In this document: positions 103 to 26,791 of the stretch, piece by piece
Numbering within the stretch: position 1 is the stretch's first letter
Layout: every line of letters begins with the position of its first letter
From: an uncultured Gemmatimonadaceae bacterium
Lineage (GTDB): Bacteria > Gemmatimonadota > Gemmatimonadetes > Longimicrobiales > Gaopeijiaceae
Reading direction: 5' to 3'
Assembly (NCBI GenBank): GCA_964567985.1
Contig: CAZMPV010000001.1
Coordinates: 1 to 26,791 of the forward strand
Length of the DNA: 26,791 nucleotides
Made by a program: the position numbers and the translations under genes
The notes under the pieces: generated by a model
The model's input: the letters and a program-made list of their open reading frames with translations, nothing else
Database searches by the model: none
What the model was told of the DNA's origin: nothing

Positions 103-2328
103 TCACCGGGACATGACGGGGCGCCGCACCCGGTACATGCGGGCCCCCGTCGGATCTTCTGGATCCCGGAGCCCCACGACCTCGTCGGGCCGGATCTCCC
201 GGAGCTCCATGGTGATCTCCCGGGAGAACCGCTCGCCGTGCACGACCCACTCCCATCCGTCGCCGCTCCGGCGGACGTACACGTTGGGGAACCGGGCGGT
301 CAGAAATACCAGAGCTCTCCGGCGTTCTTCCGGGTCCCGGGATTCCGCCCGCTCGGTGAGACTCAGGGCGTCTCCGGCTACGTGGTTGTACTCCTCGGAG
401 AGCCTCCTGCGCATGCCCTCCCTCGTCCGCCGCCCGGAGCCGTGGCCCAGGAACACGTCCTCCCCGCCGGATCGGTCCACCAGGATGGCGTTCTCCAATC
501 TCCACGGGTTTCCAACGCGCTGGTTGAGGAGCGAAAAGGCCACGTGGTTGTGGAAGACGACGTGATCTCCGATGACCAGGTCGTCGGGGGAGGAGGGTCG
601 GACCCGCTGGATCGCGTGCAGCGGCCCGGTCGGCACGGCCTCCCGGACGTCCCGGAGCTCGATCTCCTCGAAGGCGTTCCACTGGAGCACCAGCCGGTCC
701 GTCCCGTAGGCCTGGATCCGGCGGTTGAACTCTTCTCGTCCGACCTCTTCGGCGAAGGCCCGGAAGTGAACCAGCGAGACGAGATAGTCGCAGTGGATCA
801 GCGTCCGCTTGTGGGGCGGCTGGGGCGGGAAGAGACGCACTACCGCGGTGTAGGGATCTCTCCGTCCCTGGGCCGTCAGGGTCCAGCGGTAATCCGGGGA
901 GGGTGGGGGATCGCCGCAGATGCGGTGCTTCAGGGCCGGGTGGGCCATCCTGATGCGTCTGCGCGTCTCCTGGTCTCGGCGTCTCGAGTAGTCGTCCGGG
1001 ACCCTCGGAGTCCAGTAGGCCCGTGCCTCGTAGTTCACCCGGGGGCCCCAGTAGCGGTTCGGTTCCCGGAAGGGATAGCCGAATCCCCTACGCCCCTCGA
1101 CGGACCGCTGGCTCTCCTCCATCGCCGCGGCGGTCTCGACCCGACGGACGAGCTCATCCTCCAGCTCCCGGTCGTTGGAGAAGCGGAAGTCGTCGTCCGC
1201 GGCCGCCAGGTCCTCCAGGACGCGGGCAGCGCGCCGGAGCGCCCCGCGGCCCGAGAGCCTCCCGCGAAGGCTCTCCCGGCGGAGGAAGCGTTGACGGGCG
1301 GCCTCCGTCATCTCGCCCCACTCCGGAAGGTCCAGATGGCGTGAGCTCGGTGGCGGGGCCGGGAGGCGGACCAGGACCCGGCGGCGAATCGTCGGGCCAG
1401 CCGCCGGGCCCCGATCCTCATCGGCCTGCACCGTGTGCGTCAGCTCGTGGGCCATGAGGCCGAGGTCGCCGGTGCTCTGGCCGGCACCCAGGAAGACGTG
1501 CCCACCGTGGGTGAAGGCCCGGGCCCCGATGTCCCGGGCGGCCCGCTGGGCCCGGGCGTCGGTGTGGACACGCACGCCGGAGAGGTCCGCTCCCAGGACC
1601 GGCTCGGTCCGGGAGCGAACATCGAGCGACACCGGCTTGCCGTGGCCGGGAGCGTCCACCACGCGCTGGACGCGGTCGAGTCGCAGGCCGGGCTCCTCGG
1701 GTGAGGCCGATCGCTGAACCCCATCGTCGTCGAAGCTCGTTGCACGGGCCGCGCAGAATGGGCAGCTCCGCTGGACGGGGCCGCCCGGAGACTCCGAGCG
1801 GAGAACCTCCTCGTCGAGGCCGGGCCCCGCGCCGCACGTGGAGCACCGCCGCTGGAGACGGGAATCATTGAAGCCGACCGCCGGCCCGGCTCTCCGGGGG
1901 CTCGACCCATCCACCCCGGCCACCCCCCGCGACATCCGGACGACCCTGCGGGCCACGGCGTCGGCCTGCCTCTCGTACCGGTCGTCCGCCGGCCCGACCT
2001 CGGGCCCGGGCCGGCCGCCCGCGCCGGTCGCCGCCTTTGCTCGGGCCCGGCACGCCGGGCAGCGTCCACCGCAGGAGCAGGACGACTTTCGCTGAACCGC
2101 CCGGTGCGCCTCCTCGTCCTCCTCCGCGCACCCGGCGCACGCAGTCCCGCTCTCCACACAGGCGGCGCACTTCCGCTGCACGGAGCCGCGGACCGCGTCC
2201 GTCGCGGTGCTCAGCGCGGACCAGAGCGCGCCCCGGGCGTCCTGCCCACCCCGCCCCTTCGAATCGGCGGAGGTGGATCGGGCCTCCTTCCCCGCCTCGG
2301 TGGATTGACGTGCCTGCGCCTGACGCAT
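103..2328 (-). CDS. DUF4157 (eCIS core domain) effector with Cys-rich N-terminus and C-terminal Tgl-like transglutaminase domain, 741 aa
   Basis: ATG at 2326-2328 with AGGGA just upstream. The D-x-Y-E-R-Q-A-D-x-V-A motif is typical of DUF4157 proteins. DUF4157 core GKPV...DLSGVRVHTD...ARAFTHG...LMAHELTHTVQ lies at 1426-1641. The C-terminal motifs IHCDY, GDHVVFHN, WRLEN and GHGSG match the Bacillus Tgl family by eye. Confidence 0.88.
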   Translation of the reverse strand: MRQAQARQSTEAGKEARSTSADSKGRGGQDARGALWSALSTATDAVRGSVQRKCAACVESGTACAGCAEEDEEAHRAVQRKSSCSCGGRCPACRARAKAATGAGGRPGPEVGPADDRYERQADAVARRVVRMSRGVAGVDGSSPRRAGPAVGFNDSRLQRRCSTCGAGPGLDEEVLRSESPGGPVQRSCPFCAARATSFDDDGVQRSASPEEPGLRLDRVQRVVDAPGHGKPVSLDVRSRTEPVLGADLSGVRVHTDARAQRAARDIGARAFTHGGHVFLGAGQSTGDLGLMAHELTHTVQADEDRGPAAGPTIRRRVLVRLPAPPPSSRHLDLPEWGEMTEAARQRFLRRESLRGRLSGRGALRRAARVLEDLAAADDDFRFSNDRELEDELVRRVETAAAMEESQRSVEGRRGFGYPFREPNRYWGPRVNYEARAYWTPRVPDDYSRRRDQETRRRIRMAHPALKHRICGDPPPSPDYRWTLTAQGRRDPYTAVVRLFPPQPPHKRTLIHCDYLVSLVHFRAFAEEVGREEFNRRIQAYGTDRLVLQWNAFEEIELRDVREAVPTGPLHAIQRVRPSSPDDLVIGDHVVFHNHVAFSLLNQRVGNPWRLENAILVDRSGGEDVFLGHGSGRRTREGMRRRLSEEYNHVAGDALSLTERAESRDPEERRRALVFLTARFPNVYVRRSGDGWEWVVHGERFSREITMELREIRPDEVVGLRDPEDPTGARMYRVRRPVMSR

Positions 2329-2354
2329 GGAATGTCCCTGCCGTTGAGACTGAT

Positions 2355-2431
2355 CACCGGGCAGCCGGGCCGGTACCGGGTCGGGGTGAGCCTTCCTCCC
2401 CGACCCGGACCCGATTCCGCGGCTGCCGGTG
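2355..2431. other. Intergenic nested inverted repeat (GC-rich stem-loop) between the 1450-aa gene and the effector gene
   Basis: Perfect 11-bp arms CCGGGTCGGGG (2376-2386) and CCCCGACCCGG (2398-2408) enclose an 11-nt loop. Outer imperfect arms are CACCGG(G)CAGCCG (2355-2367) and CGGCTGCCGGTG (2420-2431). There is no U-tract, so it is not a canonical intrinsic terminator. Confidence 0.55.
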
Positions 2432-2439
2432 TCCGGCTG

Positions 2440-26110: not shown

Positions 26111-26135
26111 CGGAGGACGGCCGGAGAGGCGGCGG

Positions 26136-26597
26136 TCACTGGTACTCGATCCCCTCGCAGGTGAAGATCAGCTCCTCCATCGCCACCTCGCCCCCGCCCT
26201 CGGCCGCCAGCGTGGGGCCGGTGTACTTCTTGGGCTGGGCGTCCCGAAGCTTGTAGGTGACGACGGGGTTGCGGGCCTCGTCCATCACGGTGATCAGGAC
26301 CTGCCTGGGATCGGCCGTCCCCTCCCGCACCCTCTTGAGCCATTCGAAGAGATCGGGGGAGCCCACCAGGCCCCGCTTGAGCGTCACGTCGTCCACCGAG
26401 TAGGTGTTGGGCACCTTGCGCACAGTGTTGAAGCGCTCGTTCCCGTTCCGGTACTCGGCGTAGCTCACCTCGGTGCCCAGGCCGCTCACGTCGGAGAAGC
26501 CCCCGACCACGGTCCCCTCGGCGCCGTCGCCCTGGTCGCCTCCCAGCGACACGAGAAAGTTGAACGCTCCATACGGGTTCTCTCTGAAGGTCGCCAT
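26136..26597 (-). CDS. Phage tail tube protein 1 (T4 gp19 family, Afp1/Afp5-like), 153 aa
   Basis: R.NPYGAFNFLV, GGFSDVSGL, EYRNG, K.P......VTLKRG, A.P.KYTGP.L.A.G.GEVAMEEL....EGI. ATG preceded by GGGAG. Confidence 0.95.
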   Translation of the reverse strand: MATFRENPYGAFNFLVSLGGDQGDGAEGTVVGGFSDVSGLGTEVSYAEYRNGNERFNTVRKVPNTYSVDDVTLKRGLVGSPDLFEWLKRVREGTADPRQVLITVMDEARNPVVTYKLRDAQPKKYTGPTLAAEGGGEVAMEELIFTCEGIEYQ

Positions 26598-26609
26598 CGT
26601 CGTCTCCCG

Positions 26610-26791
26610 TCAGCTCCGGTCGGCGTCGGCGGTCCACTGTCCGATCCGGAAGATCACGAACTCCGCCGGCTTCGTCGGGGCGATCCCGACGAGGCAGATC
26701 ATCCGGCCGTTGTCCAGGTCGTTCTGGGTCATGGTGGTCCGGTCGCACCGCACGAAGAACGCCTCGTCGGGGGTCTCACCCATGAGGGCCC
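26610..26791 (-). CDS. Phage tail sheath protein 1, C-terminal 59 aa (partial; runs off the window)
   Basis: Not in the ORF track. The minus strand reads ...ALMGETPDEAFFVRCDRTTMTQNDLDNGRMICLVGIAPTKPAEFVIFRIGQWTADADRS*, with TGA at 26610-26612. This is a canonical sheath C-terminus. Confidence 0.93.
   Translation of the reverse strand, partial: ALMGETPDEAFFVRCDRTTMTQNDLDNGRMICLVGIAPTKPAEFVIFRIGQWTADADRS

What the first reader, a model, noticed from the sequence alone, without database searches (positions are those of the whole stretch)
103..26791. eCIS subtype with an unusual accessory tail, in a probably under-studied high-GC host
Seen in sequence: a complete contractile core in the order sheath-tube-sheath-tube, split hub and spike, and no recognisable Afp13/Pvc13-type knobbed fibre. 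After the ATPase comes a three-gene module (coiled coil, two paralogous fibre-base proteins), then one DUF4157 enzyme effector. No lysis genes lie downstream; the locus ends against a convergent gene. Inference: a distinct eCIS architecture whose target recognition (SusC/SusD/OmpA-like modules), tip (no PAAR seen) and payload (Tgl-like) all differ from Afp, PVC and MAC. The cap (DUF4255/Afp16), PAAR or lysis genes could lie upstream, outside the window.
Basis: partly seen in the sequence, partly recalled or inferred. Interest (0 to 1): 0.75.

Follow-up and report, generated by a model that had tools for sequence, protein, structure and literature searches.

The report
Soil-bacterium phage-tail injection system operon
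The window is most of a phage-tail-like injection system (eCIS) operon from a soil Gemmatimonadota genome; its "unusual accessory tail" is a pair of tail-fibre proteins found, in the same gene order, in dozens of other bacteria, so it is an ordinary member of a widespread but untested clade.

Summary
All genes lie on the minus strand in the order sheath-tube-sheath-tube, Cis7, split hub and spike, gp25, Baseplate J, Tail_P2_I, AAA+ ATPase, three accessory genes, then one DUF4157 effector.

The window covers only 26.8 kb of a 34-kb contig. Upstream I found the DUF4255 cap, the full first sheath gene, an endolysin-like amidase and a BTAD regulator. I found no PAAR, capsid or terminase gene.

The claim of a distinct architecture does not hold.
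- **Synteny:** the whole order, accessory module included, recurs in every related locus that reaches far enough. Both fibre genes are present in 28 of 44 clade loci, spanning six phyla, including cultured Plasticicumulans, Ramlibacter, Actinoplanes and a Rhodococcus opacus plasmid.
- **Fibre genes:** the two "fibre-base" proteins share a Cis13-type N-terminal baseplate anchor, and f485 is predicted to trimerise. Genera carrying this clade are listed as eBAP3-type in a 2026 fibre catalogue.
- **Target-recognition domains:** only the CarboxypepD_reg domain is real, and five orthologues lack it. SusD-like and OmpA-like segments are not supported.
- **Payload:** DUF4157–TGL fusions are a common effector family.
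- **ATPase:** the frameshift is absent from four other soil assemblies.

Still open for the whole clade: a conserved membrane-hairpin protein in the PAAR slot, the coiled-coil gene, and the mode of action. The scan noted these features only on this window.

The parts
26610..26791 (-). 3' end (last ~60 codons) of sheath gene A. The full gene is contig C1:26610-28517, 635 aa.
   Evidence: Pfam Phage_sheath_1 E 1e-21 and Phage_sheath_1C on the full ORF. 58-80% identical in relatives.
26136..26597 (-). Tube protein A (153 aa), probably the main tube, Afp1-like.
   Evidence: Pfam Phage_T4_gp19 E 1e-31. 88% identical in L008.
23546..26110 (-). Sheath protein B (854 aa) with a long N-terminal extension.
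   Evidence: Pfam Phage_sheath_1C and Phage_sheath_1 at residues 616-841. The closest solved sheaths are those of Streptomyces CIS (8BKY E 2e-53).
22987..23541 (-). Tube protein B (184 aa), Afp5-like tube initiator (inferred).
   Evidence: Pfam Phage_T4_gp19 E 4e-31.
21744..22982 (-). Cis7/Afp7-like tube-baseplate connector (412 aa) with a low-complexity C-terminus.
   Evidence: Pfam CIS_tube E 1e-26 at residues 5-156.
21559..21744 (-). Small conserved gene (61 aa, MPVHVNEVSTEI...RAEGFHG) directly upstream of and overlapping the hub gene. Function unknown; a spike-plug-like role is speculation.
   Evidence: ORF. The same M-x-VH-[VI]...RTAAEG[FY]DD protein lies upstream of the hub in at least 20 related loci. 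Annotated as a 58-aa CDS in R. opacus.
20481..21566 (-). Baseplate hub (gp27/GPD-like half of a split VgrG/Afp8), 361 aa.
   Evidence: Pfam Phage_GPD E 3e-10. RefSeq names the R. opacus orthologue 'VgrG/Pvc8 family'.
19819..20481 (-). Spike (gp5-like OB fold plus beta-helix half of the split VgrG), 220 aa.
   Evidence: Pfam Phage_base_V E 2e-23. Aligns to the C-terminal parts of the AlgoCIS, tCIS, Afp8, Pvc8 and CIS-Sc spikes.
18132..19814 (-). Clade-specific 560-aa protein in the slot where other eCIS encode PAAR. Beta-sandwich core (1-345) plus a conserved ~48-residue hydrophobic segment (396-445). Function unknown.
   Evidence: No Pfam, NCBIfam, PHROG or PDB match. Present in 43 of 44 clade loci, with the hydrophobic segment conserved. 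AF2 pLDDT 67, no PAAR-like fold, best Z 6.5. Hydropathy.
17749..18135 (-). gp25/Afp9 sheath-initiator wedge protein (128 aa).
   Evidence: Pfam GPW_gp25 E 4e-26.
15543..17741 (-). Baseplate J (Cis11/Afp11), 732 aa.
   Evidence: Pfam Baseplate_J E 3e-13. Closest solved structure is S. coelicolor Cis11, 9GTP, E 2e-53. Used for the clade tree.
13287..15539 (-). Tail_P2_I-type baseplate wedge or adaptor protein (750 aa) with an N-terminal NHL repeat region. Probable docking partner of the fibres (inferred from the literature).
   Evidence: Pfam Tail_P2_I E 4e-12 and NHL E 2e-7. PHROG tail protein. PMC12923769 models Tail_P2_I as the adaptor of eBAP3/5 fibres.
11675..13285 (-). 536-aa protein directly upstream of the ATPase. 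Candidate tape measure (Afp14/Cis14 analogue); lead only.
   Evidence: No Pfam match. The ESM Atlas feature search lists a CIS_TMP (PF19268) cluster at score 0.86, 185/256 shared features. Conserved in 33 loci.
9657..11682 (-). Afp15-type AAA+ ATPase, read in two frames in this assembly. The winged-helix N part lies at 10561-11682 and the AAA part at 9657-10544, with one extra base near 10550.
   Evidence: Pfam WHD and AAA in different frames. GC3 phase switch. The intact L008 orthologue aligns in two frames. Contigs of four soil runs lack one base at 10550.
8304..9629 (-). Acidic, Ala/Leu-rich, probably coiled-coil protein (441 aa). Function unknown; a role in fibre assembly is a guess.
   Evidence: Only weak SMC/PspA-type matches. 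A 440-540-aa gene sits in the same slot in 24 of 28 loci, united by jackhmmer, and is absent in 4.
6795..8252 (-). Short tail-fibre-like protein f485: Cis13/eBAP3-type N-terminal anchor, shoulder-like middle, Gly/Asn/Asp linker, C-terminal Ig-like beta-sandwich.
   Evidence: NCBIfam CIS13_fam E 5e-9 at residues 25-100. At least 344 homologue clusters, all 'hypothetical'. AF2 pLDDT 79. C-domain Z 12 to SbsC/CopC; residues 27-312 Z 6-7 to phage RBP shoulders. Homotrimer score 0.90 against a best control of 0.00 (mark reached by 20/30 solved homo-pairs and 1/23 single chains; own alignment, three copies).
2440..6792 (-). Long tail-fibre-like protein f1450: same N-terminal anchor, conserved first ~510 aa, variable distal part with one CarboxypepD_reg beta-sandwich (residues 804-889).
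   Evidence: CIS13_fam E 5e-9 at residues 32-98. BLASTP to f485 E 6e-6. CarboxypepD_reg_2 E 5e-13. Five orthologues have no Pfam domain, and conservation drops after ~510 aa.
103..2328 (-). Cargo/effector (741 aa): Cys-rich N-terminus, DUF4157/eCIS_core (233-304, HExxH), TGL-like C-terminal domain (~513-655).
   Evidence: Pfam eCIS_core E 4e-23; TGL E 3e-4, 20.6 bits, below the 23.7 cut-off. ESM Atlas top cluster is TGL at 0.93, 209/256. At least 193 homologue clusters, most carrying PF13699+PF20085.
1..60 (+). Last 19 codons plus TGA of a convergent ORF cut by the contig end.
   Evidence: Read directly from the sequence.

Best explanation
The window is the larger part of one minus-strand operon for an eCIS-superfamily contractile injection system in a soil Gemmatimonadota MAG. 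It belongs to a widespread clade whose whole gene order is conserved.

SHOWN BY HOMOLOGY. The operon encodes:
- a cap (upstream of the window);
- two sheath proteins and two gp19 tube proteins plus Cis7;
- a split hub and spike;
- a gp25 - Baseplate J - Tail_P2_I wedge;
- an Afp15-type AAA+ ATPase;
- a DUF4157-TGL cargo protein.

SHOWN BY HOMOLOGY PLUS MODELLING. The 'accessory tail' is two tail-fibre-like proteins (485 and 1450 aa). Both begin with the Cis13-type baseplate-anchor domain. f485 is predicted to trimerise. Their distal parts differ: an Ig-like sandwich in one, and a long variable arm with one CarboxypepD_reg sandwich in the other.

INFERRED.
- The fibres dock on the Tail_P2_I/Baseplate J periphery, as eBAP3-type fibres are modelled to do, giving a baseplate with short and long fibres.
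- The 536-aa protein upstream of the ATPase is the tape measure.
- The coiled-coil protein helps fibre assembly.
- A BTAD regulator switches the operon on and particles assemble in the cytoplasm.
- Particles are released by lysis, with help from the nearby endolysin-like amidase.
- They bind a target surface through the fibres, contract, and deliver the TGL-like enzyme. That enzyme would cross-link, deamidate or cleave target proteins.
- The one-base ATPase frameshift is most likely an assembly or minority-variant artefact.
For: - Parts list: Pfam and NCBIfam.
- Upstream contig.
- Synteny of the full order in related loci.
- Every clade locus that reaches at least 2.5 kb past the ATPase has f485; 28 of 44 have both fibres; 43 of 44 have the 560-aa protein.
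- The Cis11 tree shows one clade of 44 rows with SH-aLRT 100 and a stem length of 1.27.
- Fibre assignment: CIS13_fam N-terminal matches; Cis13 is the baseplate-binding, tail-fibre-like trimer of tCIS (PMC8894136).
- The same N-domain occurs in the haloarchaeal Cis13-position gene and in two Cereibacter genes, one of them collagen-like.
- f485 model and folds. Homotrimer score 0.90 against a best control of 0.00 (mark reached by 20/30 solved homo-pairs and 1/23 single chains; own alignment and three copies, so the counts hold only roughly).
- eBAP3 fibres, Tail_P2_I adaptors and multi-fibre loci are described in PMC12923769. Its supplement labels Plasticicumulans, Ramlibacter, Thiodictyon, Actinoplanes and Cereibacter loci as eBAP3.
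- Cargo. DUF4157 with a C-terminal toxin, and BTAD regulators, are general eCIS features (PMC8213781). EAT14 is a validated DUF4157 plus transglutaminase-like toxin (PMC11297309).
- Frameshift.
Against: - No member of this clade has been imaged or purified, so release, extracellular action and target are inferences.
- No holin or spanin gene was seen next to the amidase.
- The eBAP3 assignment is indirect. It rests on genus-level matches in a supplement and on weak shoulder-like fold hits (Z 6-7). The eBAP3 profile could not be run.
- CIS13_fam is matched only over ~75 residues, at 36 bits against an equivalog cut-off of 370.
- The fibres sit after the ATPase, not after the baseplate genes as in ~90% of catalogued loci.
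- The conserved membrane-hairpin protein in the PAAR slot is unexplained and could point to a membrane-bound mode of action.
- The TGL match is below Pfam's cut-off in this copy.
- The roles proposed for the tape measure and the coiled-coil protein are leads only.
Confidence: 0.8

Rival explanations
1. Same machine, different mode of action. The particle is not released. It acts from inside the producer, either anchored to the cytoplasmic membrane in a T6SS-like way (as in Halogeometricum) or firing in the cytoplasm under stress (as in Streptomyces CIS-Sc or Anabaena tCIS). The conserved 560-aa hydrophobic-hairpin protein would then be the membrane anchor or membrane-directed component.
For: - The 560-aa protein has a conserved ~48-residue hydrophobic segment and is present in 43 of 44 clade loci.
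- The closest solved relatives of sheath and Cis11 are the cytoplasmic CIS-Sc.
- The literature warns that mode of action cannot be read from sequence (PMC12998442).
- Membrane proteins anchor tCIS (Cis13 transmembrane helix), the haloarchaeal T6SS (Hbor_38620) and CIS-Sc (CisA).
- No holin was seen.
Against: - Two fibre-like proteins without hydrophobic segments and with variable distal parts fit recognition of an outside surface. CIS-Sc has no fibres.
- An endolysin-like amidase travels with the locus in two Gemmatimonadota genomes.
- The hydrophobic protein sits in the spike/PAAR slot, not where known anchors are encoded.
Confidence: 0.2
2. One reading: a distinct, essentially unique eCIS architecture, with target recognition built from SusC/SusD/OmpA-like modules.
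For: - No Pfam family covers the accessory genes, and RefSeq calls them hypothetical.
- A CarboxypepD_reg domain is present.
- The fibres lie after the ATPase, which is the minority arrangement.
Against: - The same order and the same accessory genes occur in at least 28 loci of six phyla.
- The f485 family has at least 344 clusters at 90% identity.
- SusD is not significant and OmpA is absent.
- CarboxypepD_reg is missing from five orthologues.
- The fibre class is catalogued.
Confidence: 0.04
3. A decaying locus: the ATPase frameshift is real, so this population no longer makes loaded particles.
For: The window itself carries an extra base that separates the winged-helix and AAA parts into two frames.
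Against: - All contigs covering the site in four soil runs from two studies lack that base, including one 99.5%-identical contig.
- All other genes are intact with strong codon-position GC bias.
- The site is a C4G4 run, which is prone to consensus errors.
Confidence: 0.1
4. A prophage tail or an R-type tailocin rather than an eCIS.
For: Sheath, tube and baseplate genes are phage-derived, and an endolysin-like amidase is adjacent.
Against: - There is no capsid, portal or terminase gene on the 34-kb contig.
- eCIS hallmarks are present: an AAA+ ATPase, a Pvc16_N cap, CIS_tube and a DUF4157 cargo. Published screens use these to separate eCIS from phages and tailocins (PMC12210884).
Confidence: 0.02

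Closest known systems
eBAP3-type tail fibres of Tail_P2_I-bearing eCIS loci (catalogue of eCIS receptor-binding domains, Nat Commun 2026, PMC12923769)
   Same: - A conserved N-terminal baseplate anchor is followed by variable distal modules.
- The loci carry Tail_P2_I and no Afp12.
- More than one fibre gene per locus is common (23% of loci).
- The fold is shoulder-like and the fibres are trimeric.
- Genera that carry this clade (Plasticicumulans, Ramlibacter, Thiodictyon, Actinoplanes) are labelled eBAP3 in the supplement.
   Different: - The fibre genes here follow the ATPase and a coiled-coil gene, instead of directly following the baseplate genes as in ~90% of catalogued loci.
- Gemmatimonadota and Acidobacteriota names were not found in the stored parts of the paper's supplement.
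- The eBAP3 profile itself could not be run.
Cis13 of the Anabaena thylakoid-anchored CIS (PDB 7B5H; NCBIfam CIS13_fam NF053767)
   Same: The N-terminal ~75 residues of both f485 and f1450 match the family's N-terminus (E 5e-9). In tCIS this is the baseplate-binding domain of a tail-fibre-like trimer.
   Different: - Only the anchor is shared, at 36 bits against a cut-off of 370.
- There is no C-terminal triple helix or transmembrane helix.
- An f485 profile finds no PDB chain by sequence.
Streptomyces coelicolor CIS-Sc (subtype IId; PDB 8BKY, 9GTP)
   Same: It has the closest solved sheath and Cis11 (E 2e-53 each). Streptomyces loci also sit next to BTAD regulators.
   Different: - CIS-Sc has a contiguous VgrG, one sheath, no fibres and a cytoplasmic action that depends on CisA.
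- It has no homologue of the 560-aa protein, the fibres or the coiled-coil gene.
- It falls in a separate Cis11 clade.
Haloarchaeal T6SS-like CIS (clade IIa; Halogeometricum borinquense, PMC11566945; Haloferax larsenii plasmid seen here)
   Same: - The hub and spike are split.
- A Tail_P2_I-type protein is present.
- A Cis13-type N-domain protein is present (35% identity over 84 aa).
- DUF4157 proteins are present.
   Different: - IIa has a PAAR gene in the spike-gp25 slot, two Baseplate J genes and one sheath gene.
- The cluster is arranged in two sub-clusters, and the machine is membrane-bound.
- It branches apart in the Cis11 tree.
Afp / PVC / MAC (lineage I eCIS)
   Same: The functional parts list is the same: tube, several sheath proteins, spike, gp25, Baseplate J, AAA+ ATPase, cap, and cargo genes at the 3' end.
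   Different: - Lineage I has a contiguous VgrG, PAAR (Afp10), Afp12, adenovirus-type Afp13 fibres (eBAP1), and the cap gene last.
- Here the spike is split, there is no PAAR, Tail_P2_I replaces Afp12, the fibres are Cis13/eBAP3-type, and the cap gene comes first.
EAT14 and the DUF4157-TGL effector family
   Same: An N-terminal DUF4157 is joined to a C-terminal transglutaminase-like domain. EAT14 is toxic to E. coli and yeast (PMC11297309). At least 193 clusters are homologous to this C-domain, most annotated PF13699+PF20085.
   Different: - EAT14 was compared with a Kutzneria-type microbial transglutaminase (5M6Q). Whether it belongs to Pfam TGL was not checked.
- This copy's TGL score is below the cut-off.
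- The catalytic residues were not verified here.

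Membership tests
eCIS superfamily (Afp/PVC-like contractile injection systems) | Contractile core: sheath, gp19-type tube, gp25, Baseplate J, and a VgrG-like hub and spike | tested here: met
   Pfam matches for every part.
eCIS superfamily (Afp/PVC-like contractile injection systems) | Afp15-type AAA+ ATPase and Afp16-type cap (DUF4255/Pvc16_N) in the cluster | tested here: met
   AAA E 2e-24 plus a winged-helix domain. 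Pvc16_N E 1e-27, upstream in the same contig. The ATPase is frameshifted in this assembly only.
eCIS superfamily (Afp/PVC-like contractile injection systems) | No capsid, portal or terminase genes; no T6SS membrane complex in the locus | tested here: met
   None were found among the ORFs of the 34-kb contig. The contig ends on both sides, so more distant genes cannot be excluded.
eCIS superfamily (Afp/PVC-like contractile injection systems) | Particles are released and act extracellularly | not testable with these tools
   Needs EM or cryo-ET of a producer. Mode of action is not predictable from sequence (PMC12998442).
eBAP3-type eCIS tail fibre (PMC12923769) | Match to the eBAP3 N-terminal profile (~200 aa) | not testable with these tools
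   The profile is only in the paper's supplementary data. Indirect support: genera carrying this clade are labelled eBAP3. There is no DUF6519 (eBAP5) match.
eBAP3-type eCIS tail fibre (PMC12923769) | Shoulder-like fold, trimeric | tested here: inconclusive
   VIA Z 6-7 to the lactococcal phage RBP shoulders 4L92 and 2WZP and to the HFTV1 tail fibre, within the range of common background. The homotrimer model scores 0.90 against a best control of 0.00 (mark reached by 20/30 solved homo-pairs and 1/23 single chains).
eBAP3-type eCIS tail fibre (PMC12923769) | Locus has a Tail_P2_I adaptor and lacks Afp12 | tested here: met
   Tail_P2_I E 4e-12 in the 750-aa protein; no second Baseplate J/Afp12-type gene.
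NCBIfam CIS13_fam (NF053767, equivalog) | Full-length match above the curated cut-off (370 bits) | tested here: not met
   35.9 and 35.8 bits, covering profile positions 5-78 of 392 only. This is domain-level homology, not membership.
dbeCIS subtype IIa (Chen et al. 2019; haloarchaeal representative) | Split afp8, two afp11 copies, afp10 (PAAR) present | tested here: not met
   The split afp8 is met. There is only one Baseplate_J gene and no PAAR. The haloarchaeal IIa locus has both and branches apart.
dbeCIS subtype IId (Streptomyces CIS-Sc) | Contiguous afp8, no afp12/afp13 | tested here: not met
   The hub and spike are split and two Cis13-type genes are present. It forms a separate Cis11 clade.
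Tgl-type protein-glutamine gamma-glutamyltransferase (Pfam TGL PF20085) | Profile match above the gathering score; Cys/Glu/His catalytic residues | tested here: inconclusive
   20.6 bits against a cut-off of 23.7. NCBIfam Tgl E 0.008. The ESM Atlas top cluster is TGL. Most homologues carry PF20085. Catalytic residues were not checked.

The most novel reading that the evidence does not exclude
The clade to which this locus belongs may use a tip or anchoring solution not yet described. It has no Pfam-detectable PAAR protein in the locus, nor anywhere in this MAG or in 4 of 5 other host genomes searched. In the PAAR slot it always encodes a ~550-aa beta-sandwich protein with a conserved ~48-residue hydrophobic hairpin. 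It also has a small conserved 55-60-aa gene before the hub and a fibre module placed after the ATPase. If the hairpin protein rides on the spike as a membrane-inserting tip or cargo, or tethers the baseplate to a membrane, this would be a new functional variant of contractile injection systems shared by soil Gemmatimonadota, Acidobacteriota, Planctomycetota, Pseudomonadota and Actinomycetota.
Probability: 0.25. Interest if true: 0.6.

Novelty: new member of a known kind. Interest (0 to 1): 0.3.

Why it matters
As a single locus it adds little. It is one more copy of a gene cluster already present in dozens of public genomes, and its fibre class, regulator type and effector type have all been described.

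Its value is as a pointer to a whole clade that is common in soil phyla (Acidobacteriota, Gemmatimonadota, Planctomycetota) where almost nothing is known about cell-cell weapons. No member of this clade has been purified or imaged. Five conserved genes in it have no assigned function:
- the 284-aa gene after the cap;
- the 61-aa gene before the hub;
- the 560-aa hairpin protein in the PAAR slot;
- the candidate tape measure;
- the coiled-coil gene.

Cultured carriers exist (Plasticicumulans lactativorans DSM 25287, Ramlibacter paludis, an Actinoplanes strain and a Rhodococcus opacus plasmid), so the open questions can be tested directly.

Tried and rejected
- **Direct search with f485:** The search for related loci with f485 on genome contigs found nothing. 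The Baseplate J query worked instead.
- **Searching relatives with f1450:** this mostly picked up the CarboxypepD_reg domain of TonB-dependent receptors in the host order. Only one true orthologue appeared, in G029.
- **Sequence searches of PDB:** f485 alone, an f485 profile, the 560-aa protein and the effector C-domain all gave nothing meaningful.
- **PHROGs:** nothing for the accessory genes.
- **Foldseek and VIA on the f485 model:** the results were dominated by the generic C-terminal Ig-like domain. The shoulder-like hits are only Z 6-7.
- **The 560-aa model:** only generic beta-sandwich matches (best Z 6.5) and no PAAR-like fold.
- **DUF6519/eBAP5:** no match at E up to 10.
- **SusD and OmpA:** SusD_RagB scores E 0.075, and OmpA gives no match. 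Both rejected.
- **Chen et al. 2019 supplement:** not held as text, so the dbeCIS subtype could not be looked up. Assignment to IIa or IId by gene content failed (see membership tests), and IIb/IIc could not be decided.
- **Literature search:** combining 'contractile injection' with the cultured host genera found no paper holding both.
- **Prophage or tailocin reading:** rejected because head genes are absent and eCIS hallmarks are present.
- **Pseudogene reading of the ATPase:** judged unlikely.

Full report
**What is in the window**

The sequence has 74% G+C. Third-codon-position GC (0.86-0.93) puts every real gene on the minus strand. Pfam names most of them. In order of transcription they are:
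- gp19-type tube (26136-26597);
- an 854-aa sheath (23546-26110);
- a second gp19 tube (22987-23541);
- a CIS_tube protein (21744-22982);
- a Phage_GPD hub (20481-21566);
- a Phage_base_V spike (19819-20481);
- a 560-aa protein with no match (18132-19814);
- gp25 (17749-18135);
- Baseplate_J (15543-17741);
- a Tail_P2_I protein with NHL repeats (13287-15539);
- a 536-aa protein with no match (11675-13285);
- an AAA+ ATPase (9657-11682);
- three accessory genes of 441, 485 and 1450 aa;
- a 741-aa protein with eCIS_core/DUF4157 and a sub-threshold TGL match (103-2328).

**The rest of the contig**

The window is positions 1-26791 of a 34,016-nt contig. The contig comes from a 3.19-Mb, 548-contig, 79%-complete genome with 71% G+C.

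It holds:
- the full first sheath gene (635 aa; only its last ~60 codons are in the window);
- a conserved 284-aa unknown, GTGA-coupled to the cap gene;
- the Pvc16_N/DUF4255 cap;
- an Amidase_2+SH3_3 endolysin-like gene;
- a BTAD/SARP-type regulator;
- then unrelated genes.

There is no capsid, portal, terminase or PAAR gene. At the other end, the 'convergent gene' is only 19 codons plus a stop at 1-60, where the contig stops.

**The ATPase frameshift**

The winged-helix N-terminal part and the AAA part are in different frames. An intact orthologue aligns to the window in two frames that meet between 10529 and 10561, at a C4G4 run.

Logan contigs of four soil-metagenome runs from two studies were laid on the region. 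Every contig covering position 10550 lacks one base there, including a 460-nt contig with only two other differences. The frameshift is therefore most likely a consensus error or a minority variant, not evidence of decay.

**Is the architecture distinct? No**

A Baseplate J search of one genome per GTDB species returned 80 loci. The nearest is an uncultured Gemmatimonadales chromosome (63% identity). Acidobacteriota, Longimicrobium, Planctomycetota, Pseudomonadota and Actinomycetota follow at 44-57%.

A tblastn of all 22 proteins of the contig against these loci shows one conserved order: sheath A, tube A, sheath B, tube B, Cis7, hub, spike, the 560-aa protein, gp25, Baseplate J, Tail_P2_I, the 536-aa protein, ATPase, a 440-540-aa gene, f485, f1450.

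Further points from the survey:
- Every locus that extends at least 2.5 kb beyond the ATPase has f485. 28 of 44 have both fibre genes and the rest are cut by contig ends. 43 of 44 have the 560-aa protein.
- The coiled-coil gene is present in 24 of 28 loci and missing in four.
- The upstream part (regulator, cap, 284-aa gene, sheath A) and the downstream part (one to six DUF4157 genes) are also conserved in four genomes examined further. In the Gemmatimonadales chromosome the amidase orthologue (56% identity) sits after the effector instead of before the cap.
- A Rhodococcus opacus plasmid carries the same set. RefSeq labels all the accessory genes 'hypothetical protein'.
- A Cis11 tree puts the window and all these loci in one clade of 44 rows (SH-aLRT 100, stem length 1.27). 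This clade is apart from a Streptomyces (IId) plus Chloroflexota group, from a haloarchaeal IIa locus and from a Cereibacter locus.

**What the accessory module is**

f485 and f1450 share about 110 N-terminal residues (29% identity, E 6e-6). Both N-termini match the start of NCBIfam CIS13_fam (E 5e-9, profile positions 5-78 of 392). Cis13 of the Anabaena thylakoid-anchored CIS is a tail-fibre-like trimer whose N-terminal domains bind the baseplate (PMC8894136).

The same N-domain is found in three other places:
- the Cis13-position gene of a haloarchaeal IIa cluster;
- a Cereibacter gene annotated as collagen-like;
- a second Cereibacter gene.

So it is a general lineage-II fibre anchor.

The f485 family has at least 344 clusters at 90% identity. 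None is named and none has a Pfam domain. An AlphaFold2 model built from 52 homologues (pLDDT 79) has these features:
- a C-terminal Ig-like sandwich (Z 12 to S-layer SbsC and CopC);
- an N-terminal and middle part with only middling similarity (Z 6-7) to the shoulder domains of lactococcal phage receptor-binding proteins and a haloarchaeal virus tail fibre.

Three copies of residues 1-325 are predicted to form a trimer with score 0.90, against 0.00 for the best of three controls. That mark was reached by 20 of 30 solved homo-pairs and 1 of 23 single chains. The counts hold only roughly here, because my own alignment and three copies were used.

A 2026 catalogue of eCIS fibres (PMC12923769) defines five N-terminal anchors. 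Its eBAP3 is about 200 aa and shoulder-like, occurs in Tail_P2_I-bearing loci that lack Afp12, and is often found in multi-fibre loci. The supplement labels loci of Plasticicumulans, Ramlibacter, Thiodictyon, Actinoplanes and Cereibacter as eBAP3. These are genera that carry this clade or this N-domain. I therefore read f485 and f1450 as eBAP3-type short and long fibres. The assignment is indirect, because the profile could not be run.

The one unusual point is position. About 90% of catalogued fibres directly follow the baseplate genes. Here they follow the ATPase and the coiled-coil gene.

**'SusC/SusD/OmpA-like' recognition**

Only CarboxypepD_reg is significant (residues 804-889, E 5e-13). 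SusD_RagB reaches 13 bits against a cut-off of 23 (E 0.075). OmpA gives no match.

Five orthologues of f1450 have no Pfam domain at all, and conservation drops after about residue 510. The distal part is therefore variable, as expected of a receptor-binding arm. The CarboxypepD_reg sandwich is a local addition of a domain that is very common in the TonB-dependent receptors of this host order.

**The tip**

No PAAR_motif match reaches significance in this genome. None is found anywhere in four of five other genomes that carry the clade, and the fifth has one on another contig. The spike aligns with the gp5-like C-terminal halves of the Afp8, Pvc8, AlgoCIS, tCIS and CIS-Sc spikes.

In the slot where the haloarchaeal IIa cluster has a 98-aa PAAR gene, this clade has the 560-aa protein. 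That protein has a beta-sandwich core and a conserved hydrophobic stretch at 396-445. Its fold matches are generic (best Z 6.5). What it does is not known.

A 61-aa gene just before the hub is conserved in at least 20 loci and is also unexplained.

**The payload**

- DUF4157 is a known eCIS marker that is often fused N-terminally to toxin domains. BTAD regulators are known neighbours of eCIS operons (PMC8213781).
- The C-terminal domain has a sub-threshold TGL match, and a TGL cluster is its best ESM Atlas neighbour (0.93, 209 of 256 features).
- It has at least 193 homologue clusters, most carrying both PF13699 and PF20085.
- A DUF4157 plus transglutaminase-like eCIS toxin, EAT14, has been shown to be toxic (PMC11297309).

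The payload differs from those of Afp, PVC and MAC, but it belongs to a common eCIS effector family. This genome has only one DUF4157 gene.

**Other parts**

The 536-aa protein before the ATPase is a candidate tape measure. This rests on its position and on an ESM Atlas lead to CIS_TMP (0.86), and nothing more. The 441-aa protein is acidic and rich in Ala and Leu, with only weak SMC/PspA-type matches.

**Comparison and classification**

The nearest solved machines are the Streptomyces CIS-Sc. It has a contiguous VgrG, no fibres and a cytoplasmic action (PMC12237407, PMC10066040), and it shares none of the clade-specific genes.

Of the criteria of Chen et al. 2019, the split afp8 fits IIa, IIb and IIc. 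The lack of PAAR and the single Baseplate J do not fit IIa, and the Cis11 tree separates the clade from both the IIa and the IId anchors. I could not assign a dbeCIS subtype.

I found no paper that links contractile injection systems with the cultured host genera of this clade.

**Mechanism and verdict**

The best-supported reading (0.8) is a conventional eCIS of a widespread clade:
- it is regulated by a BTAD protein;
- it is assembled with the help of the ATPase;
- it carries two kinds of trimeric Cis13/eBAP3-type fibres on a Tail_P2_I baseplate;
- it is loaded with a DUF4157-TGL enzyme;
- it is probably released by lysis with the adjacent amidase.

Release and extracellular action are inferred. 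A membrane-bound or cytoplasmic mode, with the hairpin protein as anchor, remains a real alternative (0.2).

The locus is a new member of a known kind. The interest lies in the clade's untested conserved genes, not in this copy. Earlier notes of this scan exist only for this same window.

Noticed in passing
window 10529-10561 (site near 10550): The one-base frameshift that splits the AAA+ ATPase is absent from every contig covering the site in four other soil-metagenome runs from two studies. Those contigs also read G>T at 10545 and C>T at 10556. It is probably an assembly or minority-variant artefact at a C4G4 run.
   Followed up: yes
window 21559-21744 (-): An unannotated 61-aa gene between Cis7 and the hub, overlapping the hub start. 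The same small protein (M-x-VH-[VI]...RTAAEG[FY]DD) precedes the hub in at least 20 related loci and is a 58-aa CDS in R. opacus. Function unknown.
   Followed up: partly
window 18132-19814 (-): The 560-aa protein in the PAAR slot has a ~48-residue hydrophobic segment (396-445) that is the best-conserved part of the family. It is the only strongly hydrophobic segment in the operon's 22 proteins. No PAAR gene is found in this genome or in 4 of 5 other genomes with the clade.
   Followed up: partly
contig C1:30517-31344 and 31368-32366 (L001:4518-5345 and 5369-6367, minus strand): An endolysin-like Amidase_2+SH3_3 gene and a BTAD/SARP-type regulator lie just upstream of the cap gene. In the Gemmatimonadales chromosome G041 the amidase orthologue (56% identity) lies downstream of the effector instead. 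No holin was recognised.
   Followed up: partly
contig C1 ~30024-30260 (L001 ~4025-4260, minus strand): A small ORF of about 76 aa between the amidase and the cap genes (reads ...TFVVRLWFE...GEWRGQVREVPGGDTAYFRKLEGVVGALEKL...). Its third-position GC of 0.83 is lower than that of neighbouring genes. Not examined further.
   Followed up: no
window 4126-4383 (f1450 residues 804-889): The CarboxypepD_reg domain is present in this copy of the long fibre but in none of five orthologues. The same domain heads many ~1000-aa TonB-dependent-receptor-like ORFs in this genome and its order, at 30-42% identity. It is possibly a domain picked up from the host pool.
   Followed up: partly
L017, L023, L041, L042 (between the ATPase and the f485 orthologue): Four related loci (two Gemmatimonadaceae, two Actinomycetota MAGs) lack the coiled-coil gene. 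The ATPase and the short fibre gene are 60-300 nt apart. The gene is therefore dispensable for at least some members.
   Followed up: partly
L096 (R. opacus plasmid NZ_CP095404.2) 5078-10870: In the Rhodococcus copy of the clade, two DUF4157 genes, a HEAT-repeat gene and a hypothetical gene are inserted between the second sheath gene and the second tube gene. The short fibre is only 307 aa.
   Followed up: no
L099 (Cereibacter sphaeroides plasmid p.B) 6460-29778: A more distant eCIS (Baseplate J 38% identical) also has the cap-first, sheath-tube-sheath-tube order. It has two genes with the Cis13-type N-domain, one of them collagen-like, placed before the ATPase. The double sheath-tube layout is therefore older than the clade described here.
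   Followed up: partly
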